Shown: in pieces, positions 9,520 through 30,677 of the stretch
Numbering within the stretch: position 1 is the stretch's first letter
Layout of the letters: every line of letters starts with the position of its first letter
Virus record (IMG/VR): IMGVR_UViG_3300042673_001035
Location: 32,001 to 96,000 of that record
From: a virus
Reading direction: 5' to 3' (one strand)
Length of the DNA stretch: 64,000 nucleotides
Program-made: the position numbers and the translations under genes
Notes under the pieces: model-generated
Databases searched by the model: none
Told to the model about the DNA's origin: nothing
What the model saw: only the letters and a program-made list of their open reading frames with translations

Positions 9520-10002
9520 TTAAATTAATGAACTTAATTTTAAATTTTTAGATACCCATACTGCCATTATTTCTCTACAACCAGATGTTATTTCTTTAAC
9601 TTCATGATATTCGGTTTTGCCGTCAAATGTTACCATATCTCCTTTTTTAAAATCAATCAACTCTTCATTAACATATAATTGTCCCCCTTCAAAATTATCA
9701 TTTAACATAATCAAATATGTTTTACTTGATTTGATGTCCAAATGTTTTTTAGCAAAATATCCAGATTCATATTTTATATAATGTAATGAATATATTATTT
9801 CATCTTTTTCTAATGTTATATATTTTGATATGGTATCGACCAATATATTATTAGTTAAATCACAATAAAATATATCTTTTAAATTTATTACGTTTTTAAA
9901 ATCGTGATATGATTTTATTTTATTGTTTTCATTTCCAAAATTATAATTTTTTAATATTATATCAATATCGTTATAATCAATTTTATTTTTAAATATCTCC
10001 AT
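9520..10002 (-). CDS. 2OG-Fe(II) oxygenase
   Basis: HLD...LNDNFEGGQL...HEVKEITSGCR (HxD...H...R). Confidence 0.9.
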   Translation of the reverse strand: MEIFKNKIDYNDIDIILKNYNFGNENNKIKSYHDFKNVINLKDIFYCDLTNNILVDTISKYITLEKDEIIYSLHYIKYESGYFAKKHLDIKSSKTYLIMLNDNFEGGQLYVNEELIDFKKGDMVTFDGKTEYHEVKEITSGCREIMAVWVSKNLKLSSLI

Positions 10003-10005
10003 AAT

Positions 10006-10629
10006 TTATATAATTTTATTTGTTTTATTCTCAAATTTTACAATTGGTTCATTCGTATTTAATAAACTATAAATTTTTTTGTAAAAGTCATAACAACCTT
10101 GCCAACCTGGATGCCAATCCATTGGATTACCCCCTTCATCCGCAATAGAAGATACTTGTATTAATTCTACAAACTCTTTTGTTTTTTCATAAAAATCATC
10201 ATTCCACGTTACAAATATTGGTTCATATTCTTTATAAAAATATTTTAACTTTTTAATAAATAGTATTTCATCGTTTCTACCGTCAGCAAGCCAACTTTCC
10301 GTTTCTTTAACTCTTAATTCTAATAATTTTTTTGCAAACGATTTGTCTTTATACCACTCCCAATTTAAATATTTTATATTGTGATTCGTTTCTCTATCTC
10401 CAAAATATCTTCTTGGAAATCTTCCAGGTGCAGTAAATACGATTACGATTCTATCTCCTTCTCTATGATTTGGAATATTTCCAGTTTGATAAACTATTGA
10501 ATGATTATCAGAACCATATTTACCGAAATTTATAATATTATAGTGATTAGATAAATAATCAACCCAATGTATTTTAGGTAAATCCCAATCAACAAAGCTA
10601 TCTCCACATATATAAAGGTTTGGCTTCAT
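10006..10629 (-). CDS. SGNH/GDSL-like hydrolase or acyltransferase
   Basis: GDSF block I, GSDN, C-terminal DWHP. Confidence 0.75.
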   Translation of the reverse strand: MKPNLYICGDSFVDWDLPKIHWVDYLSNHYNIINFGKYGSDNHSIVYQTGNIPNHREGDRIVIVFTAPGRFPRRYFGDRETNHNIKYLNWEWYKDKSFAKKLLELRVKETESWLADGRNDEILFIKKLKYFYKEYEPIFVTWNDDFYEKTKEFVELIQVSSIADEGGNPMDWHPGWQGCYDFYKKIYSLLNTNEPIVKFENKTNKII

Positions 10630-11126
10630 ATTAATTTATTTGTTTCTAATTTTATGTGTTCATTTTGTAAAAACCAAATTAATGAATATCTATCTCCTTC
10701 TAAAATGGGTGTTATTTCGTGTTCAATTCTTACATCAAATATATAGGTATTTCCTATTTCTTTATTTAACACATATTCATCCGAATTATATAATTTAAAA
10801 TTTCCTCCCTCAAAATCATCATTCAATAATACACCCACTGCGTAAACTCTATTATCTCTAATATCATTATGTTTTCCAAACCATGCACCTTTTGTAAATT
10901 TATGAAAATGTATCCTTTTGTTTATTGTTCTGATTGTAATGTTTGTTTCCTTTTGTAAAAACTCCTTCAACTTATCAAATAACCAAATAGTATTTTTATT
11001 ATATTCTATACTCATTGATTCATACATTCTATCTTTATAGTTCCAATTTTGTTTTTTTGATTTTGATATATCAATAATTGATTGACATTCTTGTTGATTA
11101 AATAATATTTTTTGTTTTAATATCAT
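10626..11126 (-). CDS. 2OG-Fe(II) oxygenase
   Basis: HND...LNDDFEGGNF...HEITPILEGDRYSL. Confidence 0.9.
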   Translation of the reverse strand: MILKQKILFNQQECQSIIDISKSKKQNWNYKDRMYESMSIEYNKNTIWLFDKLKEFLQKETNITIRTINKRIHFHKFTKGAWFGKHNDIRDNRVYAVGVLLNDDFEGGNFKLYNSDEYVLNKEIGNTYIFDVRIEHEITPILEGDRYSLIWFLQNEHIKLETNKLI

Positions 11127-12181
11127 AAAAGTTTTGATAAGTTTTTTCTTAATTTGTGTTTTTTAATTATATCATTCATATTATGAATGCACATTTGATT
11201 AAAACAAACTTTATTTATTTGATTTAAAAATTCTTTAAATTCAGGGTGTGATTCTGACCATATTTGTTTTATTAAAAATTCACCATCTGTATATGTTCCC
11301 CAATTTGTAATTTTATTAAAATATATTTCAACCTTTTCTTTAAGTATATTTTTCATCAATTTATAAAATGAGTCCATCTCTGTGTAATTTGTATCTTGTA
11401 CAACGAATGAAGTTCTAACTTTTTTTATTGTTTCACATTTAGAAATAAAATTTAAGTTTTCAATTAAAACGCCCCAATCCCCACCTCTTCTAATAATTTC
11501 ATATGTTTTTTGAGTTGATGCATCTATACTTATTTCTATTGTTTTTATTAAATGGTGTATGTGGCTTAAACTATTCCACATTTTTTCATTTAATAATAAT
11601 CCATTGGTATGTAAATGAATTTGTTTTATATTTGGGAATTTTTTATTATCAAAATTTAGTAATAATTTTCTAATTGATTTGGATGCAAATGGGTCTGCAG
11701 AACCTGAAAGATATAACATCTTTATATTTTTACCATAAACATCAACAATTTTATTTATTGTATTATCAATAAATTCCAATTCCGCTCCATCCGCCATAAT
11801 TGCCACATTTCTACAAGATGGACATGATAGATTACAACTTCTATCAAATGCAAAATTAATATTAGTCGGGCCGTTTTTATAATCATTAACATTAAAATTG
11901 GTTATATGTTTAAACCCCTGTGGTATGTTTTTATTAATTAACAATTCAGACAAATACGGACATTGTGTTTTTGAACAATATTTGTATGAACCATCTAAAA
12001 TTGATTCTTGTATTTTTTTTAATTCGTCACTCTCCCAAGCAGTTTCAATATCTTTTAAATTGGAAATTTTATTGGGTAACCAAGATGGACAACAACTATA
12101 TATTCCATTTTTATGTGCTTCTAAATATTCAAATGGAGTTGTACATATATATTTTTTTAGTATTTCTTCGTTTGTATCCAT
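11123..12181 (-). CDS. Radical SAM protein with N-terminal SPASM/twitch-like Cys cluster
   Basis: CNLSCPSC (CxxxCxxC), HTNG, ISIDA; N-terminal CTTPF...CCP...CSKTQCP. Confidence 0.9.
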   Translation of the reverse strand: MDTNEEILKKYICTTPFEYLEAHKNGIYSCCPSWLPNKISNLKDIETAWESDELKKIQESILDGSYKYCSKTQCPYLSELLINKNIPQGFKHITNFNVNDYKNGPTNINFAFDRSCNLSCPSCRNVAIMADGAELEFIDNTINKIVDVYGKNIKMLYLSGSADPFASKSIRKLLLNFDNKKFPNIKQIHLHTNGLLLNEKMWNSLSHIHHLIKTIEISIDASTQKTYEIIRRGGDWGVLIENLNFISKCETIKKVRTSFVVQDTNYTEMDSFYKLMKNILKEKVEIYFNKITNWGTYTDGEFLIKQIWSESHPEFKEFLNQINKVCFNQMCIHNMNDIIKKHKLRKNLSKLL

Positions 12182-12187
12182 TTCATC

Positions 12188-12775
12188 TTACATTAATGTT
12201 TTTTTATTTTTGAAAGCTGGAATAGTAAATAAAACATTTGCTGCGATAACAACTCTATCCTTATCCGAATTTGGAGATGTTTCGGGTCTATGATATAACC
12301 CTGCAGGGAAAACAAATAGTTCATCTTCTTCAGGTAAAATGAGTATATCTTGTTCATTATGTATAAACCCCAATCTACCATCTTTTTTTTCTAAATTATT
12401 TGGCATTTGAGCATAATATGTAAAGGTATAATCACTTATTATGGAACTTTTGACTGTTTTTGAAAATTCCATATGATTATGCCAATGGGATTGTGTAGTG
12501 TCACTTCTTAATATAAGAGCCCATGGATAGATACAATAATCTGCATTTTCAATATTTTTATCTTTATAAAATAACTCTTTACATTTTTCTACACCAAAAT
12601 TAAGTATATAATCTATCTCTTTACATTTTAATATAAGCTCTGTTTGGATACCTGGATAGTCGTATGATAAATTATGAGAAAATAATCCTACATTTTCATA
12701 AATTTTTCTAATCAAATCTTCCTTTACAAATGGAAAATTTACTTTGTATCTATGTACATTCATTTCATTAATCAT
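12188..12775 (-). CDS. Putative 2OG-Fe(II) oxygenase (TIGR02466-like)
   Basis: WHNH...YYAQMP...FVFPAGLYHRP...DRVVIAAN. Confidence 0.8.
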   Translation of the reverse strand: MINEMNVHRYKVNFPFVKEDLIRKIYENVGLFSHNLSYDYPGIQTELILKCKEIDYILNFGVEKCKELFYKDKNIENADYCIYPWALILRSDTTQSHWHNHMEFSKTVKSSIISDYTFTYYAQMPNNLEKKDGRLGFIHNEQDILILPEEDELFVFPAGLYHRPETSPNSDKDRVVIAANVLFTIPAFKNKKTLM

Positions 12776-13386
12776 ATTAAGCTATTTTTACTTTTTATTT
12801 TAATATCGTTTTCAATAATCCAACCACTTATTGAATATCTTTTATAGGTTTTATCAACTATTTCATCGACGAGATGTAAATCTTTAATATTTTCAACATC
12901 AAATATATTTAAACTATTAAATTTAGGTAATAATTTATGTGTAATATTATCATTTTTATCAACAAATTGCAAGCACCCACCTTTACTTTCATCTACATCT
13001 TTTGTTAAATTATAAACAAATGCATATTTTCTATCAAACACCGAATCATTGTGTTTTGAAAGAAAACTACCATATGTATATTTTGAAATAAAAATACTTT
13101 GAGGTATGAAAAATTTGTCATTAAGTAAATTACTTAATTTAAATTCAAAATTTAACATTTTTAATAAATCATAGATAAATTCTGTATTTTCAATCTTTTC
13201 AAACCAATAAGAAAATTCACCTTTTTTAAATTTAGATTTTTCAAATTCATAAGATTTTTTATGATTAGAAGATGTTATCCAATCTTGTTGTGAATCTATT
13301 ATTTTATATATAGTTTCTGCAGTTTGTTCAGATAAAAAATTTTCTATCTGTGTTGGTTTGGTTTTTAATTCTTCTATATAATTCAT
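12772..13386 (-). CDS. 2OG-Fe(II) oxygenase (prolyl hydroxylase-like)
   Basis: FLSKHND...YNLT...GGCLQF...HLV...RYSISGW. Confidence 0.9.
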   Translation of the reverse strand: MNYIEELKTKPTQIENFLSEQTAETIYKIIDSQQDWITSSNHKKSYEFEKSKFKKGEFSYWFEKIENTEFIYDLLKMLNFEFKLSNLLNDKFFIPQSIFISKYTYGSFLSKHNDSVFDRKYAFVYNLTKDVDESKGGCLQFVDKNDNITHKLLPKFNSLNIFDVENIKDLHLVDEIVDKTYKRYSISGWIIENDIKIKSKNSLI

Positions 13387-13389
13387 ATA

Positions 13390-14076
13390 TTATATTAAAT
13401 TTATTTTATTTTGAAATCTTGATTCAAAGGTATTCCATAAAAAATTTTTTAAATCATCGTTTAATATAATTTTATTATTTTCTTTTTTTGTTTCATTAGT
13501 TTTTACTATTTTTAATTCTACACCAAATTTTTGGTATATAAAACTTGTAAATTTATCTAATTCTGTAATATCAAATTCGTATGTACATTTTTCATTTTCA
13601 GTCCAAAAGTTTTTAGAACCAAAAATACATAAAGTGCCAGTTAAATTTTTATTTATTTTAGTAAAAAAACCATTGTAACAATCCCGCATTTCTTCTAAAT
13701 TTTCTGAATATATTGCATTTGCAAAATTAGTATTGAAATGTTTGTAGATAAATTCATTATCAACATCTTTCCAATCTATAATTAGTTCATTTTTATGTGT
13801 GTTTTTAGAAACATCAAAAAAAAATTCTAATGCACTTAACCATCTATCAAACCAATTTCTATTAATACAAAACGTTTCTTTTATTCCAAACTCATTTATA
13901 CATTGACTTTTTCTTAAATGGTAGTGTTTTAAATTACTTTTACTATTTTTAATAAATGATTCTATTAAAGGTGATTTTTTAATTTTTAAAACTGACGATT
14001 CAAATGAATTTATTAAAGAAACAGATGCACACCTTGGTATTGAAATCCAAATAAGTTCGTTATTTATGAGTAACAT
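13390..14076 (-). CDS. Sulfotransferase-like protein (Sulfotransfer_2 type)
   Basis: WISIPRCASVS 5'-PSB-like loop and RNWFDRWLSA 3'-PB-like motif. Confidence 0.75.
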   Translation of the reverse strand: MLLINNELIWISIPRCASVSLINSFESSVLKIKKSPLIESFIKNSKSNLKHYHLRKSQCINEFGIKETFCINRNWFDRWLSALEFFFDVSKNTHKNELIIDWKDVDNEFIYKHFNTNFANAIYSENLEEMRDCYNGFFTKINKNLTGTLCIFGSKNFWTENEKCTYEFDITELDKFTSFIYQKFGVELKIVKTNETKKENNKIILNDDLKNFLWNTFESRFQNKINLI

Positions 14077-14088
14077 ATTAAAATATTT

Positions 14089-14358
14089 TTATAGTAACCT
14101 CTTTGATTCTGATTTTACTTTTGTAAAAAATTCATCATCTACATCTTTCCATTTACCTTTTGGACATGGATTTTGATTCTCTGAAAATATTTTTTTGGAT
14201 ATCGGACACCCACATGCCGAACAAATAGGTTTTGTTAATATAAGTTTTTTATACTCACATCCATTACATATGTTAGCTCTATTTAATGCCAACAATCTTT
14301 GGGATTCAGTTGGATTAAATGAAATTATCCAAGCATTAATTATTTCAGTAAAATTCAT
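14089..14358 (-). CDS. Small CxxC metal-binding protein (DUF6171-like)
   Basis: R..ICNGC...CSACGCPI..K...CPKGKW. Confidence 0.75.
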   Translation of the reverse strand: MNFTEIINAWIISFNPTESQRLLALNRANICNGCEYKKLILTKPICSACGCPISKKIFSENQNPCPKGKWKDVDDEFFTKVKSESKRLL

Positions 14359-14378
14359 AACTTATTAATTGAAAAAAT

Positions 14379-14456
14379 TTAAGAATTGTCACTTACTATT
14401 AATGCACCTATTTGGGTCATTATAGTATTAATTGTTGTAATTTCTTGTATAGTCAT
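14379..14456 (-). CDS. Possible 25-aa small ORF
   Basis: MTIQEITTINTIMTQIGALIVSDNS* fills the gap between the Hint protein and the CxxC protein. Confidence 0.4.
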   Translation of the reverse strand: MTIQEITTINTIMTQIGALIVSDNS

Positions 14457-14477
14457 TTTATTAAATATTTTATTTTA

Positions 14478-15986
14478 TTATAAATACAAACAAACTCTAC
14501 CACCATCATAACAAGGGTTATTATAATTGTAAGTACAGGTTTCGTACATTTTATTACATCCACCAGCTCCGATACCAAATACGAAACAACGTTGGCATTG
14601 AAAGTTATGTTCGATTGCTACAAACATACCATCATCGGTTTTAGTTAAGAATAAGTGTTCATCCTGAACTCCAATCTGCCATCCATCAAATCCTTCTACA
14701 CTATTTGTTATATTTGTTACAGTTTTTTCGTTTACTTCAATTGTTTCTAAATTATCCGTTTGTACTAAAAGTATTTTATCACCTATTTGTAACATATCTA
14801 CTTCTTCATCTTCGGAATGAAGTTTTGTCCATTTAACAATATCACCTCTCTTTATAAGATATTGTGATATGGATGTATCCTGCCATGTTGTATTATCATC
14901 AAATGTAATTGTTGTCATTGGTGATAATACATTTGATTTTGTTTTAAACTGAACGACATTTGTACTAAATGTTGAATTTGATAAAAATTCATTAAAATCA
15001 ACTTGATAATTTCGTAATTCGTTTGATGAATCTAAATTTGGTTGATTTTCATATAATTTAATAGTCTTTATTATATCACCAGCTTGTAATTCTAATCCTG
15101 TTTTATATGTACCATCTGCCATCATTACCAAATCGGTGTCTAACAATTTAGGCCTACTAATATCTTGGGTGTTTGTGATATATGACTTTCTAAAGTTTGA
15201 GTCTATTTCGAAAGTTTCAGAATTATAAGTAACATTATCATACAATTGTACATTACCATGTTTAGTATATGCACCAATTGAAATAGATTCTAATGTCGAT
15301 GGATATAATAAATTATATGAACGAACTATACTGACTACATTATTTTCAATTTTATTTAAATTTAAATGATACTCCATTAAAAAATATTCATCGGTTACAT
15401 TTTGTAATACCACATCTAATTCTTCCAATGTAGTTACTTTATAAAATTTAGGGTATTCGTTTCTGTCGTATACCGGATATTTAGCTTTTAAAATAAAATT
15501 TGGATGTACTCCATTATCCGATATCGTTGTTATATTTGATATAAGTTCGTCATTTTCATTTTTATATGCAAATTGATGGCCAAATTCAGTAGATTGGATT
15601 AACTTTAAAAAATTAACTTTATCCTTACAATAAGTTTCATCCAATATCGCCGTAACATCATATGCACTTCTTATAATTAGATGTGTATCGGAATCATCAA
15701 CGTGTGGGATAGTTATATTACCACCTACTTCCTCAAAAGCATATTCAATATTTAAACCAGTACATAAAATTTCTAATTTATCGTGAAATTGTCTTATGCC
15801 ACCAATATATGTTACTTTAGTAAAGTTATTGGTAGTTATGAAATTGGATAATTCATCTAAATTAAATAAACTATTATATTGTTCTTGTGTTAGTCTGTTG
15901 ATACCTGAATTTGTGTTTGTTTCAATTGGTAATAAATTACCTACCGAATTATATACAAAGTCGGTTCCTAATAATACTGTTCTCAT
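14478..15986 (-). CDS. Circularly permuted ATP-grasp-like + Hint domain + C-terminal Cys-rich peptide fusion
   Basis: N-terminal GTDF...IETNTNSG, later FILKAKYP and YFLMEY; Hint block A-like KLLDTDLVMMADGTYK...LQAGD; terminal block ...HLFL...IEHN; then a 41-aa peptide with 6 Cys. Confidence 0.7.
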   Translation of the reverse strand: MRTVLLGTDFVYNSVGNLLPIETNTNSGINRLTQEQYNSLFNLDELSNFITTNNFTKVTYIGGIRQFHDKLEILCTGLNIEYAFEEVGGNITIPHVDDSDTHLIIRSAYDVTAILDETYCKDKVNFLKLIQSTEFGHQFAYKNENDELISNITTISDNGVHPNFILKAKYPVYDRNEYPKFYKVTTLEELDVVLQNVTDEYFLMEYHLNLNKIENNVVSIVRSYNLLYPSTLESISIGAYTKHGNVQLYDNVTYNSETFEIDSNFRKSYITNTQDISRPKLLDTDLVMMADGTYKTGLELQAGDIIKTIKLYENQPNLDSSNELRNYQVDFNEFLSNSTFSTNVVQFKTKSNVLSPMTTITFDDNTTWQDTSISQYLIKRGDIVKWTKLHSEDEEVDMLQIGDKILLVQTDNLETIEVNEKTVTNITNSVEGFDGWQIGVQDEHLFLTKTDDGMFVAIEHNFQCQRCFVFGIGAGGCNKMYETCTYNYNNPCYDGGRVCLYL

Positions 15987-16007
15987 ATTTTATGTTTCTA
16001 TTTGTCT

Positions 16008-16015
16008 ATAAATAT
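16008..16015 (-). promoter_or_regulatory. Candidate phage late-promoter motif ATATTTAT
   Basis: Same 8-mer lies just upstream of the starts at 8267, 21340, 35572 and 37646 (variant before 3028). Confidence 0.35.
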
Positions 16016-16032
16016 AAATTAATTAAATAAAA

Positions 16033-17832
16033 TTATATTATTTTTTTTCCATATTGAGGTTTTGGAATATCGTTTAAGTCTTCAAATAAGATAATAGGTT
16101 CTTCAATGGTTTCAATCTCATTTGAGATTATAGTGTATGATTGTGATCCTGTTTCTTGTTTTTCTTTTAATTCTAAATATAATCCTCTATTATAGATTGA
16201 ATATGGTATTCCTATTCTTTTAAATGTCTCCTCAGCTTGTTCAATTCTTCTTAACCTATCCATTGGTGTATTCCACTTTGTTGTGAAATTAACACCATTC
16301 TCATATTCTAAATATTGTTTCTCCACATCTCTCCACTTTACTAATAGAGTTTGATGTAATAAAAATACGGAACAGGTTACTATTTCTGCCATACAATCTC
16401 TAAATTCCTCTACAAAGTCTAAAGTTTTTTGAAAATCTTCATCGGTTTCGTTTAGATATCCAACAATGATTTGCATACCAAACAACAATGGATATTCAAA
16501 TTCAGTTCCCTTATTTTCTTCATTTACCTTTCTTACATTTTCAAAAATTTCTCTCACACCTTGAACATCGGTGTATTTTTTCATATGTTTAAGAACTGGT
16601 TCGGAATAAGATTCGAATCCTGTAATAAACTTTGTTAGTCCTGCTCTACGATATAATCTTATAGTTTCTATATCTCTCATTTGAGATTGTAGTCTAACAT
16701 TACCACCGATATTAATATCTAATCCTCTTTCGATAATTTTTTCACACAATTCTTTTAACCACTTTGGATTACCATTGATAATTGAATCGTGACAAAAGAA
16801 ATACTTCTTTCCTTTTGCAACCCATCCTTCTAATTCCTCTAACACATTTTCAACGGTTCTATATCGGTATTCAGGTATATAATCCGGTACTGAACAAAAC
16901 GAACAACGATAAGGACAACCTCTACTCATTGTAATAGGTTTAGTGTCCTGATAAACTGACTTATAATAAAAATTATCTTCTAAAGAACTATAATCCGGAA
17001 TAGGTAATGCATCCATTGGAATATTTGCTCTCATTTTATTGTGGATAAAAATACCATTTAATTGCCAAATTAATCCAGGTATAGACATTAAGGACTCCTC
17101 ACTCCAATCTGACTTAAGTATTTCTACAAATGTCATCTCACCATCACCTCTACTGATTGCATCGATGAAAGTATATTCGTTTGTTTTATAATTTGAATTG
17201 GGTAATCTACCAAAGTCTAACACTTCAACACCATTACCACCAATTAAAATTTTAACCTCTGGATATTTTTCTTTTACTAATTTTGCAATTGCAAGTGTTG
17301 CATCTATATTACCATCGATAATACTAAATCCTAAAAATTTAGGCTTTGCTTTCTCTAAATATCTACCAACGAATCCGTATGCAATATCATATGTTTCCTG
17401 AAAATTATATAATAGATGAAACTGACTTTGTTTGGAGTATGTATTAAATAAATTGAAAAACTCACCTTGCTTATCCGGTGGATTTAAAAAGAAATAGTCA
17501 ATTACTGGGTCAATGATTGCAACCCTTAATTCGGGTTCATATTTGTCTATCCAAGACTTTAAACCAACTATGCCGGAATAATAACCTGATTCATTGATAT
17601 TAGGAACTTGTAATAACAAACAATCTTGTTCTTCTATATCTTGAAAATGGAATTTATGTTCTATCTCCAATCCTTTGCCTTTCTCTGCAAAAACAGTTTG
17701 ACGCATATATTGTAGTAAATCGACTTTGATGTCAAATACTTCAACACCACTTTTCATTTGGTCATCTACTCTATTCTCAACTTTTTGAATTTGACTTTCA
17801 ATATCAGGACTAATGATTTCGTCAATTTGCAT
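16033..17832 (-). CDS. B12-binding radical SAM enzyme (class B methyltransferase-like)
   Basis: Cobalamin-binding region (LGFS...ILIGG...GDGE), SRGCPYRCSFC, GFES, IIVGYLNET. Confidence 0.9.
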   Translation of the reverse strand: MQIDEIISPDIESQIQKVENRVDDQMKSGVEVFDIKVDLLQYMRQTVFAEKGKGLEIEHKFHFQDIEEQDCLLLQVPNINESGYYSGIVGLKSWIDKYEPELRVAIIDPVIDYFFLNPPDKQGEFFNLFNTYSKQSQFHLLYNFQETYDIAYGFVGRYLEKAKPKFLGFSIIDGNIDATLAIAKLVKEKYPEVKILIGGNGVEVLDFGRLPNSNYKTNEYTFIDAISRGDGEMTFVEILKSDWSEESLMSIPGLIWQLNGIFIHNKMRANIPMDALPIPDYSSLEDNFYYKSVYQDTKPITMSRGCPYRCSFCSVPDYIPEYRYRTVENVLEELEGWVAKGKKYFFCHDSIINGNPKWLKELCEKIIERGLDINIGGNVRLQSQMRDIETIRLYRRAGLTKFITGFESYSEPVLKHMKKYTDVQGVREIFENVRKVNEENKGTEFEYPLLFGMQIIVGYLNETDEDFQKTLDFVEEFRDCMAEIVTCSVFLLHQTLLVKWRDVEKQYLEYENGVNFTTKWNTPMDRLRRIEQAEETFKRIGIPYSIYNRGLYLELKEKQETGSQSYTIISNEIETIEEPIILFEDLNDIPKPQYGKKII

Positions 17833-17849
17833 GAATATAATAATTTAAT

Positions 17850-17881
17850 TAAATATACAAATAATTATTGAATTTTCCAAA
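17850..17881 (-). promoter_or_regulatory. Bacteroidota-type promoter
   Basis: Minus strand TTTG-N20-TATATTTA upstream of the B12 radical SAM gene. Confidence 0.6.
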
Positions 17882-17910
17882 TAAATCAATTTTATTCAAA
17901 AAAATAAAAT

Positions 17911-18558
17911 CTATATTAATGTTGAACCATTGTTATTAATATAATTAATCATTATATCAGCCAATACTTTACAGCCAAATTCGGATAGGTGGTGGTCATT
18001 TATTACGCCTTTTGTTTCATTTATTATTTCCATCTTACCTTTATAATATGACCAATATAAATTATTTACTATTTTACTTTTTTCAAATTCGGAAAAAGCT
18101 GACCAATAAACTATTTTGTTATTTTTAAATGTATAATTTAACAAATCCATCCATCCCATTATTTCTTTTAAAAATAATTCGGAATCTCTATTTACTAAAA
18201 TTTCTTGTAAAGTCCTCTCACTTATAAGTGGTAAATCTGGTAAATGATTAAGAATTATTGTATGGAAAAATTTGTTAGACATATCTGCTAGTCTAAATCT
18301 TGTTATTGATGACCATCCTATTATTATATAATCACCATCTTTGATGTTATTGATTTGTTTTATAATGGAATCTAATATCGTATAATTATCACTACCACCT
18401 TTAGCACAATTTCGAAATGGTAATTCTAAATTATCCGCAAGAATTTCTGGCCAAAATTTGGGTTCATACCCTTTCCATTTGATATATTCATCTGCCCACC
18501 GATAAGATTTATTATATCCCTCAGTATTAGAATCACCAAAAAACCATATCTTATTCAT
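17911..18558 (-). CDS. SGNH/GDSL-like hydrolase or acyltransferase
   Basis: FFGDSNTEG, GGSDN, DHHLS; close paralog of 30030..30677. Confidence 0.8.
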   Translation of the reverse strand: MNKIWFFGDSNTEGYNKSYRWADEYIKWKGYEPKFWPEILADNLELPFRNCAKGGSDNYTILDSIIKQINNIKDGDYIIIGWSSITRFRLADMSNKFFHTIILNHLPDLPLISERTLQEILVNRDSELFLKEIMGWMDLLNYTFKNNKIVYWSAFSEFEKSKIVNNLYWSYYKGKMEIINETKGVINDHHLSEFGCKVLADIMINYINNNGSTLI

Positions 18559-18584
18559 ATTTTATAATATTGTTTAAATTAATT

Positions 18585-18628
18585 GGGGTGGGGGTTGGGG
18601 GAGAAAGTCGTTTTTTAAGAAAATTTTT
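18585..18628 (+). repeat. G-tract element G4-T-G5-TT-G5-AGAAAGTCGTTTTTTAAGAAAATTTTT (copy 1)
   Basis: Intergenic; matches the reverse complement of 28111..28151. Confidence 0.75.
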
Positions 18629-18651
18629 AGAACATACCTTCTATTGATAGT

Positions 18652-19353
18652 CTATATCAATTCTCTTTTTATACTTATTATACTTTTTAATTTCATTTTA
18701 AGATTCAATATATCATCTTCCAATTTATCAATTTCATTTTGTTTTTCCATTAATAAGTCGTATGATGTCAGTCCTCTTTCATTATTTAAAATTCGTTTTA
18801 ACCATAACTCATCTTTGTCACATAAAATATATAATTCATCCAATTTGTCTTTTGATATCATAGATAAAATTTCAACTTTTGATTTAAAATGTTTCATTTT
18901 ATGGGAATCATATAATTCGGGTTTATATTCAATTTTATAATCAAAAAATTCCGACAATTTGTCTAGATGTATCATTTTGAATCCAAAAATATTCCATATA
19001 CGATACAGATTTTTATATAAGTTTGGAGACCAATGTTCGGATTTATCATCAATCATATTTTCAATAATTACATCCAAATTCCAATCTTGTTTACGATTAT
19101 TGGAGGTGTGTATTTTGCCCTCTATATTTCCCCACACATAATCGGTTTGAATCGCCGATATGATATGTTCACACGGATTTCTATATGTTACAATTGAATT
19201 TTGTGTAATATCGATTGGTGGATTAGGTGAATTTGGGTCTATATCCACTTCCGATTGGTTTATCCAATTAGAATTTCTTACAAATCGAATACCACACTTT
19301 GGAATACAAATAATTGGTTCTCTATCTTTATATTCATGTTTTGATAAAATCAT
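18652..19353 (-). CDS. Sulfotransferase-like protein
   Basis: ICIPKCG and YRNPCEHIISA motifs; C-terminal coiled coil. Confidence 0.6.
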   Translation of the reverse strand: MILSKHEYKDREPIICIPKCGIRFVRNSNWINQSEVDIDPNSPNPPIDITQNSIVTYRNPCEHIISAIQTDYVWGNIEGKIHTSNNRKQDWNLDVIIENMIDDKSEHWSPNLYKNLYRIWNIFGFKMIHLDKLSEFFDYKIEYKPELYDSHKMKHFKSKVEILSMISKDKLDELYILCDKDELWLKRILNNERGLTSYDLLMEKQNEIDKLEDDILNLKMKLKSIISIKRELI

Positions 19354-19502
19354 AGTATTGTGTTTATTTCTTCATTAGGTCTCTTTTAAGACGCTTTAGA
19401 TACCATATAGGAAAATATATCACCCAATACATAGAAACGACAAATACACCACCCATAATGACAATGGACATGGTTATAAGTCTTAAGATTAGTAATATAG
19501 TA

Positions 19503-19778
19503 TTAATGAGAGATACCATTACCATAAATTGATGTCCAGATGCCGACTATACCAACCAAACACCAAAAGGCATTCAATATAATGTATGCACGGTTATCTC
19601 TTTCCCATGCAGCATAAGTTAAAATAACGGCATCGATAGTATTCCATATCCACATCCAAAGAAAAGGAGTATCAGGTCCCATAATAGAAAGAGTACCAAA
19701 TGCAATGATTCTCATCACTACTCCGATATTCTCCATCCATTTAATTGTGGTTTCACTTAATAACTTTAGTTTTGACAT
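19503..19778 (-). CDS. Small 3-TM membrane protein
   Basis: Three hydrophobic helices, LNAFW motif (CBU_0592-like). Confidence 0.6.
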   Translation of the reverse strand: MSKLKLLSETTIKWMENIGVVMRIIAFGTLSIMGPDTPFLWMWIWNTIDAVILTYAAWERDNRAYIILNAFWCLVGIVGIWTSIYGNGISH

Positions 19779-19783
19779 AACTT

Positions 19784-20809
19784 TTATTTAGTTTGTAGTT
19801 TCTTAATTTGTTCTTGTAGTTCTACTACCTTACGAGCAAGATACCCTTGATTTTGTGCATCCGTAGTTTGGCCTTGTTGTATTTGTTTTTCTACATTTGC
19901 TCTATCTTCTTTTGCCTTTCTCTCTATATCGGACAAACCTTTATCTAATTCTTTTTTAGCATCGTCTAAATCAGTCTTAATAGTATTAATAGGATTAGTT
20001 TCAACGGATACTAATGTACTACTTTCAGTACTCTTAACACTATGATTGTCTTCGTCACTATCGGACTCTGCAATAAGGTCTTTTTGAATTATACCATAGA
20101 TATTAGGAGTAGGTATTATGCCATCAAAGAAAGTACTCTTAATACGATTAAAATCTTTTCTGAGTAAATCTAATTGTTTATCTAACTCTATAAGAAAGGT
20201 TTGTAGTTTGAGTGGGTCGAAAATAGTTTTTTCTTGGTCGGTTACTGTTGCAATAGGTACAAACGTATAGTGAGGGTTTAATTGTTTATCTACCATTTTT
20301 TCATAGTCTACCACTTCAAACTTATCGGATGGTCGTTTACTTACCTTATCTAATGTATAATTAATTTGGTCTATTAACTTATTGGGTATACCTTCTGTTA
20401 ATCCGTTTTCTGCATCATCTATATAAGATACATCTACAACGCCTGCCTGTCTATTCTGTAAATCTCTACTATCTATACTCTTTTGTAGTTGGGTTACGTC
20501 CAATTCAATAATCTTAATTGTTTTACCCATACCCACTTCTTTATCCTTAACCATTATCTTACCATTCTCTACAATATCATAGTGTGGGTTCTTTGAGTCT
20601 TTTATATCGTTAAGTGTTTGTGGAGAACATAAATAATCTAAACCTATCTTTACTATAATACCATTTCCTTTAATAACTGGTTTAAGGTTTGCAAGTGGTG
20701 TACCAATAGGCAGGTATATAGGTTTAATATCGTTTGATGCAGATATCTTCCAATTCTTGCCATCGGTTGTATATCTTTCCGAATTTTGATTGATTAACTT
20801 AATACTCAT
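19784..20809 (-). CDS. Hypothetical protein with C-terminal coiled coil
   Basis: 341-aa ORF in an operon-like arrangement. Confidence 0.65.
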   Translation of the reverse strand: MSIKLINQNSERYTTDGKNWKISASNDIKPIYLPIGTPLANLKPVIKGNGIIVKIGLDYLCSPQTLNDIKDSKNPHYDIVENGKIMVKDKEVGMGKTIKIIELDVTQLQKSIDSRDLQNRQAGVVDVSYIDDAENGLTEGIPNKLIDQINYTLDKVSKRPSDKFEVVDYEKMVDKQLNPHYTFVPIATVTDQEKTIFDPLKLQTFLIELDKQLDLLRKDFNRIKSTFFDGIIPTPNIYGIIQKDLIAESDSDEDNHSVKSTESSTLVSVETNPINTIKTDLDDAKKELDKGLSDIERKAKEDRANVEKQIQQGQTTDAQNQGYLARKVVELQEQIKKLQTK

Positions 20810-28151: not shown

Positions 28152-28177
28152 TTCGGTTCGTGGATCGTGGTTTCGTA

Positions 28178-28483
28178 TTAACCTAATGCAACTAATCTTA
28201 ATTTATCAATGAATATATCCATATTACGAATATCTAATAGGGTTATATAAAGTACATGTCCTGTACTACTTTGTAATTTGTATGTATTGGTATTCCATTC
28301 ATTCCTATTCAATGTAACTGTTATTGCGTATTTCATGTTAGATAATTCAAATTTGTATTGATATTCACTTTTACTATATGTAATATTATCAATACTAAAT
28401 TGTTCCTCAATTCTTGCAACATAAAAGTTTTTCTTACCCAATCCTTTATTGTTTAGTTTATTTAAGTTCTTAATCGTTAACAT
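28178..28483 (-). CDS. MLTIKN-family paralog
   Basis: MLTIKNLNKL...YKF...VTLNR...YKL pattern. Confidence 0.7.
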   Translation of the reverse strand: MLTIKNLNKLNNKGLGKKNFYVARIEEQFSIDNITYSKSEYQYKFELSNMKYAITVTLNRNEWNTNTYKLQSSTGHVLYITLLDIRNMDIFIDKLRLVALG

Positions 28484-28486
28484 ATA

Positions 28487-28705
28487 CTATCCTTTTATTT
28501 CAAATTCTTTATTGTAGATATTGTTTTCTTTTATCCATTCTATCGCATAGTTTATACCTATTCCCTTTTGATACATTCCTGCATCTTCTATCTTACTACC
28601 CTTATCCATCAATTCATCTGCCAATCCTTGTAATTGATTTAATTCCTTTCTTTCAATTGTTATAAATTGTTTAAAGTCTCCTATTAATTGATTTGTCTTG
28701 TCCAT
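28487..28705 (-). CDS. Hypothetical protein
   Basis: 72-aa ORF. Confidence 0.55.
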   Translation of the reverse strand: MDKTNQLIGDFKQFITIERKELNQLQGLADELMDKGSKIEDAGMYQKGIGINYAIEWIKENNIYNKEFEIKG

Positions 28706-29208
28706 AATCCGTTTATTAATTTATAATGTTTAATTCTATCTATTCCGATTGAGTAAGGTATTGTTATAAATGTTCGCTCACTTTCAATACTCCATTCTTT
28801 TTTTAAACTATTAGCAGTATATTGATTGTTGATATATTCTTTTATTAGTTTATAATCATACCAAAGTAATTCATCTAAGTTATTATTGAGAAATTGTATA
28901 TAGTCTACATACCAACCTTTATACTTGTTTGTCCATACTGAATTATCAGTAGCTGTATATGTGTCCGAATTATTCCAATACTTTTGTTTTCTTACGGGTA
29001 TTCTAAAATGATTATATTGTTTAATCCTATCCATTCCGTAACTAATCATCTCAACATCACATCCTCTTTTAAATTTGTTCACCTCTAAGTCTAAATCCCA
29101 TTTGCCACCTATTTGAATGTCGTACCAATTATTTTCCTCTAAAAATTGTTTTGCAACTTCCCTATCTTTTGTATCGTCGTGAGAAAGTGCATCCTTTCTA
29201 TTTACCAT
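28684..29208 (-). CDS. Hypothetical protein (possibly nuclease-like)
   Basis: 174 aa; DLDL...CDVEM segment loosely PD-(D/E)xK-like. Confidence 0.5.
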   Translation of the reverse strand: MVNRKDALSHDDTKDREVAKQFLEENNWYDIQIGGKWDLDLEVNKFKRGCDVEMISYGMDRIKQYNHFRIPVRKQKYWNNSDTYTATDNSVWTNKYKGWYVDYIQFLNNNLDELLWYDYKLIKEYINNQYTANSLKKEWSIESERTFITIPYSIGIDRIKHYKLINGLWTRQIN

Positions 29209-29214
29209 TTCGTT

Positions 29215-29757
29215 TTATATTAATTTTCTTTTTGCTTTGTTTCTATTCCTCAATCTATTTGTGTTATCCAATAGGTGTTCATACCTTGTATTCATTATAC
29301 CTATGTAATCCTTTATTCTTTGTATGTCCTCTTTTGTATTATATATCCTTTCGTATGTAACTTGTAAGTCAATTTCTTTTATTCCATTAATTAGTTCGTT
29401 ACGATTATAAATCACATTTTCAAATTGTTTTATATATATTTCGTTTTCTATTATCCATTCATCACTTACTTCATATCCATTACGCCATTCCTTTCGTTGT
29501 GATGCTCTGGTTTGAGATATTGCACATTCCCTTGCATCCGTTCTAGTCAATCCAATTATCTTGTCCCAATTACTGAAATCAATATCTTTTATATTTTCTA
29601 TTTCATTTATCAAATATTTCACTACGATATTATCACCTTCAATAGATTCATTTGTTCGTATTGGTTCGTGTATCATTTTATATCCCAACTCCAATGCTAA
29701 CCATTCATTCAATTGATACCCACCACTTCTCGCCAATGCTATAATTAATATTCTCAT
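29215..29757 (-). CDS. Sulfotransferase-like P-loop protein
   Basis: IIALARSGG, HEP, AISQ, VTYE motifs (Stf0-like). Confidence 0.75.
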   Translation of the reverse strand: MRILIIALARSGGYQLNEWLALELGYKMIHEPIRTNESIEGDNIVVKYLINEIENIKDIDFSNWDKIIGLTRTDARECAISQTRASQRKEWRNGYEVSDEWIIENEIYIKQFENVIYNRNELINGIKEIDLQVTYERIYNTKEDIQRIKDYIGIMNTRYEHLLDNTNRLRNRNKAKRKLI

Positions 29758-29766
29758 ACTATTATT

Positions 29767-30018
29767 TTATTTGTCCATTTCGTTTTCAAAAGCTTTCATC
29801 GCTCTTTTTACATTATCCATTTCGGGTATATCTAACTTTTCACCCAATGAAACGAATCCTATTGTTAATATTGCAAATACAATACCAATACTAAATTCAA
29901 CCGCTCGTTCACTATACAATGTGTCATTTTTTGCAGTCACTCCGTTATGTGTGGTTATTTGCAACCCTAATAGTGTTTCTCTTTTACTTAAAAAGCTAAA
30001 TCCTAATTCTATTTTCAT
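29767..30018 (-). CDS. Hypothetical protein
   Basis: 83-aa ORF. Confidence 0.55.
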   Translation of the reverse strand: MKIELGFSFLSKRETLLGLQITTHNGVTAKNDTLYSERAVEFSIGIVFAILTIGFVSLGEKLDIPEMDNVKRAMKAFENEMDK

Positions 30019-30029
30019 ATTATATTGTT

Positions 30030-30677
30030 TTATATTATTTCTTTGTTTTTAATTCTGTTATATTTTGCTTCTAATACTTGGGATAATTTTAATTGTCCTT
30101 GTTCACTAAAATGTTTATTATCTATTTCACCATTGGTTTCATTTTTGATTATTTCAAACTCATTTAAACAATCTGCTTCTAAAGTATTTTTAAATGCTGT
30201 CCAATGTATCACATAGTTATTCTTTAATGTATGGTTTATTAAATTTATCCAATTATTAACCTCACTGTCATATTTTTTATTACTTCTATTTGCTAATAGT
30301 TTCTTTATACTATCCCTATCCATATATTCCGCATCCCTTAACATTCCATTATCATTGGGTAAATAGTTTATCCACTCTCCATTCTTATCGGTTAATCTAA
30401 ATCTAGCACTATTTGACCAACCAAATATAATTAAGTCATCTTTTTTAATTTCTTTTACAACTTTGCAAAAAGATTCAAATATAGAATAGTTATCCCAACC
30501 ACCTACACCATAATTCATTAACTTCATACCCAATCGTTCCGATAATAGTTCACCATATACTTTTGGTACATATCCTTTCCAATTTATATAATGGTGTCTC
30601 CAATGAATTACTTTACAATCTTTATTTGGTAAAAAACTTTCAGTAAAACTATCACCAAATGTCCACAATTTTAACAT
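30030..30677 (-). CDS. SGNH/GDSL-like hydrolase or acyltransferase
   Basis: TFGDSFTE, GGWDN, KHFSE; paralog of 17911..18558 (WKGY.PK, GWS..RFRL, ET.G.I). Confidence 0.8.
   Translation of the reverse strand: MLKLWTFGDSFTESFLPNKDCKVIHWRHHYINWKGYVPKVYGELLSERLGMKLMNYGVGGWDNYSIFESFCKVVKEIKKDDLIIFGWSNSARFRLTDKNGEWINYLPNDNGMLRDAEYMDRDSIKKLLANRSNKKYDSEVNNWINLINHTLKNNYVIHWTAFKNTLEADCLNEFEIIKNETNGEIDNKHFSEQGQLKLSQVLEAKYNRIKNKEII

What the first reader, a model, noticed from the sequence alone, without database searches (positions are those of the whole stretch)
9520..30677. Shared C-terminal tag (polar/basic-x-x-[LI]-[LIM]-COOH) on 13 enzymes of unrelated folds
Seen: all 11 non-precursor proteins of the cluster end alike: KLSSLI (9520), KTNKII (10006), ETNKLI (10626), NLSKLL (11123), NKKTLM (12188), SKNSLI (12772), NKINLI (13390), ESKRLL (14089), YGKKII (16033), NGSTLI (17911), IKRELI (18652). 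So do two same-family enzymes 10 kb away: AKRKLI (29215) and KNKEII (30030). The tag often follows a short Lys-rich extension beyond the catalytic fold. The CxxC paralog outside the cluster (33252) stops at PLSKW, while the in-cluster copy carries an extension ending KRLL. Only a few other ORFs end this way (e.g. 8811, 35606, 37647, 44981). Inference: a common docking, targeting or degron signal that recruits a modular enzyme set to one scaffold, compartment or protease.
Basis: partly seen in the sequence, partly recalled or inferred. Interest (0 to 1): 0.87.

Follow-up and report, generated by a model that had tools for sequence, protein, structure and literature searches.

The report
Shared C-terminal tag on phage enzymes
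In this uncultured lake phage and many relatives, nearly every modifying enzyme encoded beside one ligase/self-cutting peptide-precursor gene ends in the same short tail (about Lys-x-x-Lys-Thr/Ser-Leu-Ile), a selected protein label that probably plugs unrelated enzymes into one partner that is still unidentified.

Summary
All 13 named ORFs carry the tail. In the island, 12 of 13 consecutive genes end [LI][LIM], against 7 of 138 elsewhere in the 116.7-kb record (Fisher p=3e-12).

- **Motif:** a 7-residue C-terminal motif, K-K/N-x-K/N-T/S/K-L-I/L/V-COOH, added beyond the catalytic fold.
- **Selection:** it acts on the protein, not the DNA. Many NTN codons are used, and synonymous usage matches internal usage.
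- **Genomic link:** the tag is tied to the 502-aa ATP-grasp/Hint/Cys-peptide precursor at 14478-15986. In 78 related virus loci, genes at +1 to +4 from that gene have hydrophobic-pair ends in 92, 93, 87 and 80% of cases. The precursor itself has one in 0 of 78.
- **Families:** each is either almost fully tagged or never tagged.
- **Controls:** distant 2OG-oxygenase homologues and the dioxygenase array of cyanophage Syn9 lack the tag.

The reader of the tag is unproven. I favour docking onto the precursor or its complex. A Clp-type degron is the main rival, because related phage records encode ClpP and an N-domain-less ClpC-like unfoldase.

This scan has already found the same tag on other genomes. 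My four paper searches found no description of it.

The parts
9520..10002 (-). Tagged 2OG-Fe(II) oxygenase, 160 aa, ends KLSSLI (tail codons 9523-9543)
   Evidence: Pfam PF13640, E=3e-9, domain ends at residue 150 of 160. Tail score 6.2. The family alignment shows the extension.
10006..10629 (-). Tagged 207-aa protein, no Pfam hit, ends KTNKII
   Evidence: Tail score 9.6.
10626..11126 (-). Tagged 2OG-Fe(II) oxygenase, 166 aa, ends ETNKLI
   Evidence: Pfam PF13640, E=1.4e-7. Tail score 10.0. Orthologues in relatives end TNKLI, INKLI or TNTLI.
11123..12181 (-). Tagged radical SAM enzyme, 352 aa, ends NLSKLL
   Evidence: Pfam PF04055, E=7e-9. Family tagged in 6 of 7 and 37 of 44.
12188..12775 (-). 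Tagged 195-aa protein of unknown family, ends NKKTLM
   Evidence: Tail score 11.5. Family tagged in 8 of 9 and 18 of 19.
12772..13386 (-). Tagged 2OG-Fe(II) oxygenase (Oxy_4 type), 204 aa, ends SKNSLI
   Evidence: Pfam PF13661, E=1.7e-19, domain ends at residue 190 of 204. Only 7 of its 150 best library homologues pass the tag score, and distant ones end at the last strand of the fold.
13390..14076 (-). Tagged 228-aa sulfotransferase-like enzyme, ends NKINLI
   Evidence: Family tagged in 53 of 53. AlphaFold2 pLDDT 91; residues 222-228 are coil and 225-228 have pLDDT below 50. Nine of the 10 best-ranked distinct Foldseek entries are sulfotransferases, but E is 0.04 or weaker.
14089..14358 (-). 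Tagged 89-aa CxxC zinc-ribbon-like protein, ends ESKRLL
   Evidence: Weak Pfam hits to DUF6171 and DZR_2. Family tagged in 10 of 10 and 45 of 49. Carries 19 residues more than its untagged paralogue 33252.
14379..14456 (-). Untagged conserved 25-aa micro-gene between the precursor and the zinc-ribbon gene, ends ...NS
   Evidence: Listed. A homologous 24-29-aa ORF follows the precursor in 77 of 78 loci.
14478..15986 (-). Untagged 502-aa precursor: permuted ATP-grasp ligase domain, Hint/BIL domain ending EHN, and a 41-aa Cys-rich peptide. It anchors the tagged island.
   Evidence: AlphaFold2 pLDDT 82. Foldseek: BIL2/inteins E=2e-8, glutathione synthetases E=5e-5. In 120 of 120 homologues, EHN is followed by a variable Cys-rich tail. 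Never tagged, 0 of 78.
16033..17832 (-). Tagged B12-binding radical SAM enzyme, 599 aa, ends YGKKII
   Evidence: Pfam PF04055 E=2e-18 and PF02310. Orthologues end KNLI, KTLI, RSLI, RKLI, QQLI or IKLI. The 59%-identical copy on a record where no precursor was found ends REKR.
17911..18558 (-). Tagged GDSL/SGNH hydrolase, 215 aa, ends NGSTLI
   Evidence: Pfam PF00657. Family tagged in 10 of 16; the untagged paralogues lie outside the islands.
18652..19353 (-). Tagged 233-aa protein, no Pfam hit, ends IKRELI
   Evidence: Tail score 4.6.
29215..29757 (-). Tagged 180-aa protein 10 kb from the island, ends AKRKLI
   Evidence: Its family lies inside the islands of relatives and is tagged in 8 of 8 and 36 of 36. 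Tail score 4.7.
30030..30677 (-). Tagged GDSL/SGNH hydrolase 11 kb from the island, ends KNKEII
   Evidence: Pfam PF00657, E=6e-6. Same family as 17911. Tail score 6.9.
33252..33551 (-). Untagged CxxC paralogue used as an internal control, ends CPLSKW
   Evidence: BLASTP against 14089: 34% identity, E=2e-7, with the alignment ending at the C-terminus of 33252.
8811..9458 (-). Island-border gene ending QDNII. It has a hydrophobic end but is not a tag.
   Evidence: Tail score -0.6. Its family is mixed, 7 of 19, and lacks the Lys positions.

Best explanation
The tail K-K/N-x-K/N-T/S/K-L-[I/L/V]-COOH is a short, flexible address tag at the free C-terminus. It was added to otherwise unrelated tailoring enzymes: 2OG oxygenases, radical SAM enzymes, SGNH hydrolases, sulfotransferase-like proteins, glycosyl- and methyltransferases, and a zinc-ribbon protein.

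I think one common reader recognises it. The most likely reader is the precursor protein itself or its complex. This is the 502-aa ATP-grasp-ligase/Hint protein that carries the Cys-rich peptide at its end, possibly together with the conserved micro-protein. Docking the tail there would hold any tagged enzyme next to the peptide substrate. That would let phages swap enzymes in and out of the island without evolving a new recognition domain for each.

Shown:
- The tag is real and selected at protein level.
- It is an add-on beyond the fold.
- It is genomically bound to the precursor gene.

Inferred:
- That it is read by a receptor.
- That the receptor is the precursor's ligase domain or complex.
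For: 1. **Statistics.** The island has 12 of 13 tagged genes against 7 of 138 elsewhere, p=3e-12. 18 of 151 ORFs pass the tag score where 1.5 are expected.

2. **Protein-level selection.**
- Positions -1 and -2 use 14 and 13 different codons, all NTN.
- Leu codon usage at -2 (TTA 0.72) matches internal usage (0.68), and Ile usage at -2 is also the same as internal.
- Tails differ in sequence but not in class within families, e.g. KGNLV, KKILL, RNALI and KINLI.

3. **Position-specific motif anchored on the free end.** L is 0.74 at -2, I/L/V is 0.89 at -1, T/S is 0.54 at -3, and K is 0.48, 0.41 and 0.43 at -4, -6 and -7. Information content falls to background beyond -8.

4. **Add-on beyond the fold.**
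- Untagged 2OG paralogues stop at the last strand.
- Distant homologues stop at query residue ~190 of 204, and 143 of 150 lack the tag.
- The paralogue 33252 lacks the 19-residue extension.
- The modelled tail is coil with low confidence.

5. **Coupling to the precursor.** In 78 loci, downstream genes have hydrophobic-pair ends as follows: +1, 67 of 73; +2, 69 of 74; +3, 61 of 70; +4, 56 of 70. The precursor itself has one in 0 of 78. A tagged rSAM 17 kb from any island still shares its record with a precursor gene. The untagged rSAM sits on a record where none was found.

6. **Family split.** 15 families of four or more members are at least 70% tagged, and 40 are at most 10% tagged.

7. **The nearest structural relatives of the ligase domain are glutathione synthetases**. 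From established enzymology (recalled, not tested here), these enzymes activate the free C-terminal carboxylate of a short peptide. That is the chemical group that defines the tag.

8. **Charge fit.** The precursor body is acidic (pI 4.8 and 4.3 for its two domains) and the tail is basic (mean net charge +1.6 against +0.3).
Against: - No binding has been measured, and I obtained no model that supports it.
- Several tagged genes lie far from the precursor: 29215, 30030, and the trio next to the tail fibre.
- The loci were found by searching with the precursor. Co-occurrence is therefore partly built in, and many loci are near-duplicates.
- The tag stays invariant while the precursor drifts to 39% identity. 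That also fits a highly conserved host reader.
- Related phage records carry their own Clp protease parts, which gives a credible alternative reader.
- The acidity of the precursor is weak evidence, because many phage proteins are acidic.
Confidence: 0.45

Rival explanations
1. The tail is a C-terminal degron. A Clp-type AAA+ protease engages the basic-then-hydrophobic free end and removes the tailoring enzymes at a set stage of infection. The protease could be the phage's own ClpP with its N-domain-less ClpC-like unfoldase, or host ClpXP.
For: - The tail resembles the MuA-type ClpX signal RRKKAI (C-motif 2). I saw this in Table 1 of PMC8138137 and in passages of PMC12723719.
- A ClpP-family gene is present in 5 of 5 large related records. 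Four score 185-194 bits and one scores 93 bits.
- A ClpC/ClpA-like double AAA+ gene of about 670-707 aa, without an N-domain, is present in 3 of those 5.
- In record G002 a GDSL-like gene (judged by its N-terminus; no Pfam hit) ending KKIM overlaps the end of the unfoldase gene.
Against: - The tag is confined to enzymes of the precursor system. 40 other conserved families have it in no more than 10% of members.
- A complete 179-kb relative has the precursor and tagged genes but no AAA_2 unfoldase, and only a weak ClpP-like hit.
- Neither Clp gene is present in this record's 116.7 kb, although the record is only 52% complete.
- The strict Leu at -2 and Thr/Ser at -3 are not features I know from the MuA class (recalled).
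- In the complete genome G004 the Clp genes are not next to tagged genes.
Confidence: 0.2
2. The tail is a localisation signal. A polybasic stretch followed by two hydrophobic residues would take the enzymes to the membrane or to an export or assembly site where the Cys-rich peptide is processed and exported.
For: - The tail has net positive charge and a hydrophobic tip.
- Small membrane proteins lie in the neighbourhood: the 91-aa and 53-aa ORFs at 19364-19778 and a DUF2061 membrane protein.
- A peptide with 6 or 8 Cys probably needs an oxidising compartment (inference).
Against: - Two hydrophobic residues make a weak membrane anchor.
- The motif is strictly registered to the free carboxylate and has specific residues at -2 and -3. 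That points to a protein pocket rather than a lipid surface.
- I did not test whether the tail forms an amphipathic helix.
Confidence: 0.1
3. The tail is the acyl substrate of the precursor's ligase domain. The free carboxylate would be activated and joined covalently to the conserved Lys, or to the freed N-terminus, of the Cys-rich peptide.
For: - The ligase domain resembles glutathione synthetases.
- All 118 cores of 60 residues or fewer hold a Lys in a C-x(0-2)-K motif.
- The tag is defined by a free C-terminus.
- ATP-grasp enzymes that act on protein C-termini exist: RimK on S6, LysX on LysW, and tubulin tyrosine ligase (recalled).
Against: - One Lys cannot serve ten enzymes in turn unless the bond is reversed.
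- The conserved Lys is explained more simply by an internal ring made by the ligase, as in graspetides (recalled).
- There is no direct evidence.
Confidence: 0.08
4. The tail is a by-product of nucleic-acid constraints. Candidates are AT-rich gene ends that help translation of the next, tightly packed gene, or boundary sequences used to shuffle cassettes.
For: - Tail codons are AT-rich.
- Hydrophobic-pair ends are commoner where the next gene overlaps or lies within 15 nt (52-54%) than where it is farther away (20-33%).
- Ile at -1 uses ATA more often than internal Ile does (0.65 against 0.47).
Against: - Synonymous usage at -2, and for Leu at -1, equals internal usage.
- 131 of 475 tagged genes have more than 15 nt, or a strand switch, after them. 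304 untagged genes are just as tightly packed.
- Families in the same loci are either tagged or not.
- AT-richness would not order K, T/S, L and I by position.
- Isolated genes carry the tag (29215, 30030).
Confidence: 0.02

Closest known systems
Peroxisomal targeting signal 1 (-S-K-L-COOH read by the Pex5 TPR domain); recalled, not tested
   Same: A very short motif at the free C-terminus, shared by enzymes of unrelated folds and read by one receptor.
   Different: The residue pattern differs (see membership test). PTS1 belongs to a eukaryotic organelle. Here the setting is a bacterial virus, and no receptor or compartment is known.
CIA targeting-complex recognition tripeptide [LIM]-[DES]-[WF]-COO- (PMC10245660, abstract read)
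   Same: A C-terminal peptide that is necessary and sufficient to recruit unrelated client proteins to one machine. It can be moved onto non-native proteins.
   Different: That motif is acidic and aromatic and is eukaryotic. Here the motif is basic and aliphatic, and the clients are enzymes recruited to a substrate rather than substrates recruited to a maturation machine.
ClpX C-motif-2 degron of MuA transposase, RRKKAI-COOH (PMC8138137 Table 1; PMC12723719 passages)
   Same: Basic residues followed by an aliphatic free C-terminus. It is also a mobile-element protein. Relatives of this phage encode Clp parts.
   Different: The degron marks single proteins. Here a whole enzyme set around one gene is marked, with conserved T/S at -3 and L at -2. 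Degradation has not been tested.
Leader-peptide recognition in RiPP pathways (RRE domains; long NHLP/Nif11 leaders); recalled
   Same: Several unrelated tailoring enzymes are directed to one ribosomal peptide substrate by a shared recognition element.
   Different: In known RiPPs the shared element is on the substrate and each enzyme carries a reader.
ATP-grasp enzymes that read protein C-terminal tails (RimK on S6, LysX on LysW, tubulin tyrosine ligase); recalled
   Same: An ATP-grasp fold recognising a conserved free C-terminal tail of a protein.
   Different: Those enzymes modify the tail covalently, and the tails are acidic. No ligation to this tail is shown.
Dioxygenase arrays of cyanophages such as Syn9 (Iyer et al. 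2010, PMC2938197, passages read)
   Same: Tandem arrays of diverse 2OG oxygenases in large aquatic phages, proposed to modify peptides or secondary metabolites.
   Different: The 24 Syn9 ORFs I read (gp35-gp62, not all of them) show no such tail. No precursor homologue was found in the GenBank phage collection.

Membership tests
ClpX C-motif-2 (MuA-type) degron | Basic residues followed by aliphatic residues at the free C-terminus | tested here: met
   Motif profile: K at -7, -6 and -4; L at -2; I/L/V at -1. Compared with RRKKAI as printed in PMC8138137.
ClpX C-motif-2 (MuA-type) degron | The tail causes ClpXP-dependent unfolding or degradation | not testable with these tools
   Needs a degradation assay.
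ClpX C-motif-2 (MuA-type) degron | A Clp unfoldase and peptidase are available in the system | tested here: inconclusive
   ClpP family in 5 of 5 related records, and an AAA_2 unfoldase in 3 of 5. Neither is in this 52%-complete record. One complete relative lacks the unfoldase. No zf-C4_ClpX in 3 records. The host is unknown.
PTS1 / Pex5 | C-terminal tripeptide [SAC]-[KRH]-[LM] (consensus recalled) | tested here: not met
   Here -3 is T/S/K, -2 is L (0.74) and -1 is I/L/V. The basic residue is not at -2.
Class I PDZ ligand | [S/T]-x-hydrophobic-COOH (consensus recalled) | tested here: inconclusive
   T or S at -3 in 54% and a hydrophobic last residue in over 90%, family-weighted. K at -3 in 20% does not fit.
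Class I PDZ ligand | A PDZ-domain reader encoded in the system | tested here: not met
   PF13180: 0 of 1 in this record and 0 of 5 in relatives. PF17820: 0 of 5. Peptidase_S41: 0 of 1. Host PDZ proteins were not examined.
Dockerin-cohesin type enzyme docking | A folded docking module of about 70 aa on each enzyme | tested here: not met
   The shared element is about 7 residues, modelled as coil with low confidence.
RiPP-like tailoring cluster | A ribosomal precursor with a hypervariable core, next to several modifying enzymes | tested here: met
   In 120 of 120 precursor homologues, EHN is followed by a variable Cys-rich peptide. Tagged neighbours include 2OG oxygenases, rSAM enzymes, an Asp/Asn hydroxylase, a SET domain and glycosyltransferases.
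RiPP-like tailoring cluster | The peptide is actually released and modified | not testable with these tools
   Needs expression and mass spectrometry.

The most novel reading that the evidence does not exclude
The tail is the handle of a covalent system, not only a docking peg. The precursor's own ATP-grasp ligase would activate the free carboxylate of each tagged enzyme. Its structural relatives activate a peptide's free C-terminal carboxylate. The ligase would then join that carboxylate to the single conserved lysine, or to the N-terminus freed by the Hint cut, of the Cys-rich peptide. This would tether substrate and enzyme through an isopeptide bond, a ubiquitin-like logic run in reverse inside a phage.
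Probability: 0.08. Interest if true: 0.95.

Novelty: new variant of a known kind. Interest (0 to 1): 0.8.

Why it matters
- **A simple rule for recruiting enzymes.** If the tail is a portable address that brings any enzyme to one peptide-bearing scaffold, it explains how these large aquatic phages keep a fast-changing, mix-and-match set of tailoring enzymes around one hypervariable Cys-rich peptide.
- **An inversion of RiPP logic.** In known RiPP pathways the substrate carries the shared recognition element. Here the enzymes would carry it.
- **A sequence marker.** The tail picks out members of the pathway anywhere in a genome, including genes with no recognisable family.
- **A possible tool.** It offers a 7-residue tag for directing enzymes to a chosen substrate.
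- **If it is a degron instead.** It would be the first case known to me of a phage marking a whole enzyme set for timed removal, possibly by its own Clp machine.

Tried and rejected
**Complex prediction.** I submitted precursor residues 1-461 (alignment A1), ATP, and the last 40 residues of the B12-rSAM enzyme. The verdict was no answer (scores 0.00 and 0.02; the mark is 0.32), and controls were not run. This is neither support nor evidence against binding.

**Search for a phage-encoded reader.**
- PDZ_2, PDZ_6 and Peptidase_S41: no match.
- zf-C4_ClpX: none in 3 records.

**Cultured relatives.**
- megablast of 9000-20000: no match.
- tblastn of the precursor: no match.
- tblastn of two enzymes: only remote hits.

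So no cultured phage is available for a direct test.

**Fold of 13390.** Nine of the 10 best-ranked distinct Foldseek entries are sulfotransferases, but none is significant (E of 0.04 or weaker). I therefore call it sulfotransferase-like only.

**Ideas considered and dropped.**
- ER-type KKXX, di-leucine sorting signals and clamp-binding motifs. The patterns do not fit, or they belong to eukaryotes. These are recalled and were not tested.
- Capsid or encapsulin cargo tags. These are cofactor-dependent biosynthetic enzymes, and the motif is unlike what I recall of those tags.
- A DNA-level cause (see rivals).

**Literature.** Four full-text searches and passages of PMC2938197 and PMC11118758 gave no description of this tail or of the precursor layout. 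Supplementary files were not opened. Those of PMC11118758 (phage RiPP mining) and PMC2938197 could list such clusters.

**Limits of my counts.**
- In some searches, 'tagged' means the last two residues are both in LIVMF.
- Loci were dereplicated only by exact protein sequence, and several loci are near-identical.
- ORFs are my own mechanical calls (at least 50 or 60 aa, longest first, no more than 30 nt overlap).

Full report
**Setting.** The window is bases 32001-96000 of a 116,680-bp virus record with 30% G+C. CheckV rates it 52% complete. By my mechanical ORF call, 151 of 169 ORFs lie on the minus strand. The record carries tail-fibre and baseplate genes, an SbcCD-like nuclease, DNA ligase, CobS/CobT-like genes and a carbamoyltransferase. 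Related records reach 335,630 bp, so this is a fragment of a very large uncultured phage. Megablast and tblastn against the GenBank phage collection found no close relative.

**The observation.**
- From 8811 to 19353, 12 of 13 consecutive genes end [LI][LIM], against 7 of 138 other minus-strand ORFs (Fisher p=3.3e-12).
- The same dipeptide class fills only 3.9% of internal positions in these proteins (binomial p=1.7e-16).
- I built a seven-position scoring matrix from tagged families of other phage loci. 18 of 151 ORFs exceed the 99th percentile of internal 7-mers, where 1.5 are expected.
- 8811 and 37647 do not score as tags, and 44981 is borderline.
- A trio of genes just after the tail-fibre gene (genome 5428-8677) also ends RLLI, NKLI and KKII. 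Two of the three pass the cut; the RLLI gene scores 2.9, just under it. None of the three has a Pfam or PHROG match.

**What the tagged proteins are.** In the window:
- three 2OG-Fe(II) oxygenases
- a radical SAM enzyme and a B12-binding radical SAM enzyme
- two GDSL/SGNH hydrolases
- a small CxxC protein
- five proteins without Pfam matches

One of the five, 13390, models well (pLDDT 91). Nine of its 10 best-ranked distinct Foldseek entries are sulfotransferases, but none is significant. An APS kinase gene lies in the same neighbourhood in relatives.

I scanned 64 representatives of 48 tagged families from related loci. The Pfam matches were:
- 2OG oxygenases: 11, 3 and 1 members for three models
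- radical SAM: 7
- DUF6734: 3
- zinc-ribbon models: 3
- cupin: 2
- single members of Asp/Asn beta-hydroxylase, SET, several glycosyltransferase families, FkbM methyltransferase and a short-chain dehydrogenase
- one terminase, which I take to be a chance ending

The claim of unrelated folds therefore holds.

**The tail is an add-on.**
- In the 2OG family alignment, untagged paralogues stop at the last strand of the fold (…NFWFH, …NCWPK). Tagged members go on for 8-15 residues.
- I took the 150 best library representatives found with the 12772 protein. Seven pass the tag score: the query itself, two full-length relatives at 34-36% identity, two fragments, and two doubtful cases. The distant homologues align only to query residue ~190 of 204 and end there.
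- The CxxC paralogue at 33252 ends at …CPLSKW, and the island copy has 19 more residues.
- In the model of 13390 the last seven residues are coil and the last four have pLDDT below 50.

**Protein-level, not DNA-level.**
- I pooled 154 non-identical ORFs with hydrophobic-pair ends from the first set of loci. Position -1 uses 14 codons and position -2 uses 13, all of the NTN type.
- In the larger set, Leu at -2 uses TTA at 0.72 against 0.68 internally. Leu at -1 and Ile at -2 also match internal usage. Only Ile at -1 shifts toward ATA (0.65 against 0.47). The script stopped before the planned significance tests.
- 131 of 475 tagged genes are followed by more than 15 nt or by a strand switch. 304 untagged genes are just as tightly packed.
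- The family-weighted profile is position-specific: K 0.43 at -7, K 0.41 at -6, K 0.48 at -4, T/S 0.54 at -3, L 0.74 at -2, and I/L/V 0.89 at -1. Information content falls to background beyond -8.

**Link to one gene.** The only untagged large gene inside the island is the 502-aa protein at 14478-15986.
- Its model (pLDDT 82) matches BIL/intein/Hedgehog Hint domains in the C-terminal part (E=2e-8) and glutathione synthetases in the N-terminal part (E=5e-5).
- All 120 retrieved homologues have the motif EHN followed by a hypervariable peptide, of 24-56 residues in 118 of them. That peptide mostly holds 6 or 8 Cys and always holds a Lys in a C-x(0-2)-K motif.
- The family has at least 702 clusters in the protein collection. 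None carries a functional name or a precomputed Pfam domain.

I searched the virus collection with an alignment of this family and got 80 loci. I analysed 79 of them, and my pattern recognised the precursor in 78. Using the looser rule (both last residues in LIVMF), genes downstream of it have hydrophobic-pair ends as follows: +1, 67 of 73; +2, 69 of 74; +3, 61 of 70; +4, 56 of 70. The fraction declines as the islands end. The precursor itself has such an end in 0 of 78.

In some loci the tagged run lies upstream of the precursor instead. The tail consensus does not change from 83% down to 39% precursor identity, or from 26 to 35% G+C.

Among 1206 non-identical ORFs, families split cleanly. 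Tagged examples are 53 of 53, 36 of 36, 45 of 49, 99 of 116 and 37 of 44. By contrast, 40 families of four or more members are at most 10% tagged.

A tagged B12-rSAM with no precursor within 10 kb still shares its record with a precursor gene. The one untagged orthologue lies on a 40-kb fragment where none was found.

These loci were found by searching with the precursor or with island enzymes, and many are near-duplicates. The counts therefore overstate independence.

**Controls from outside the group.** The dioxygenase array of cyanophage Syn9, described by Iyer et al. 2010 (PMC2938197, passages read), shows no such tail in the 24 ORFs I read (gp35-gp62). In the complete 335,630-bp relative G004, 19 of 396 ORFs pass the score. 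Seven of them sit in the single precursor island and most of the rest lie nearby.

**Who reads the tag?** This is not settled.

My preferred reading is docking onto the precursor or its complex.
- The precursor is the one untagged protein that always accompanies the tag.
- Its ligase domain belongs to a fold whose nearest solved relatives act on the free C-terminal carboxylate of a short peptide (recalled enzymology).
- The tag is defined by its register to a free C-terminus.
- The precursor body is acidic and the tail is basic.
- Enzyme content differs between related islands while the tail stays the same, which suits a plug-in handle.

The main rival is a degron.
- The tail resembles the MuA-type ClpX signal.
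- ClpP-family genes occur in 5 of 5 large related records.
- A ClpC-like double AAA+ protein without an N-domain occurs in 3 of 5.
- Against it, the tag is limited to this enzyme set, and one complete relative with tagged genes has no such unfoldase.

No PDZ or S41 reader was found.

**Prior notes of this scan.** The same tail has been reported on at least five other genomes, with similar conclusions. One note claims a model that puts the tail in a groove of the ligase, and I could not reproduce or test that here. My work adds:
- the Clp rival
- the Syn9 and distant-homologue controls
- the codon-usage and spacing tests
- the census of a complete genome
- the extra tagged trio beside the tail fibre

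**Verdict.** This is a real, strongly selected and widespread C-terminal tag that my searches did not find in print. The principle has known parallels in PTS1, the CIA client tripeptide and C-terminal degrons. The motif, the setting and the probable logic (the enzymes carry the address, the substrate scaffold reads it) are new.

Noticed in passing
window 14379-14456 (minus); L015-L102: A conserved 24-29-aa micro-gene follows the precursor gene in 77 of 78 loci. It has a conserved ...IG.LI...NS end and is never tagged. It could be a subunit or a substrate of the ligase.
   Followed up: partly
G001:C1:136275-136802, G002:C1:84034-84558, G002:C1:193467-195554 (L033:8468-10555), G003, G004: Related giant-phage records encode a full-length ClpP (185-194 bits). 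Three of them also encode a ClpC/ClpA-like double AAA+ unfoldase of about 670-707 aa that lacks the usual N-domain and has a short UVR motif.
   Followed up: partly
genome 6333-7706 (L001), outside the window: The 457-aa tagged protein next to the tail fibre has a tandem duplication of 12 residues just before its tag...NDVNVLLLKNKK twice, then NKLI.
   Followed up: no
L075 and L020 (same 211-kb record G001): One record holds two diverged precursor genes (76% and 45% identical to the window's). Each is followed by tagged genes. The collection labels this record a provirus.
   Followed up: no
window 5718-8733; L017:5524-5958: The neighbourhood of the island holds a peptide deformylase (5718-6353), an Hsp20 (8347-8733) and a DUF2061 membrane protein (6357-6566). 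Relatives also have an APS kinase and a 911-aa GT4/FkbM-methyltransferase fusion.
   Followed up: partly
L025:3808-5580, L026:5250-7022: In two relatives, two untagged 2OG-oxygenase paralogues and a Cys-ending 231-aa protein sit between the tail fibre and the tagged trio.
   Followed up: no
window 19364-19778 (minus): Two small, apparently membrane-spanning proteins lie at the upstream edge of the island. One is 91 aa and ends GNGISH; its family is conserved in relatives (8 non-identical members). The other is 53 aa.
   Followed up: no
L007:12891-15218: One relative has a 775-aa variant of the precursor that ends ...VHNK, with only one residue after the Hint His-Asn and so no Cys-rich peptide. 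Several neighbouring genes still carry the tag.
   Followed up: no
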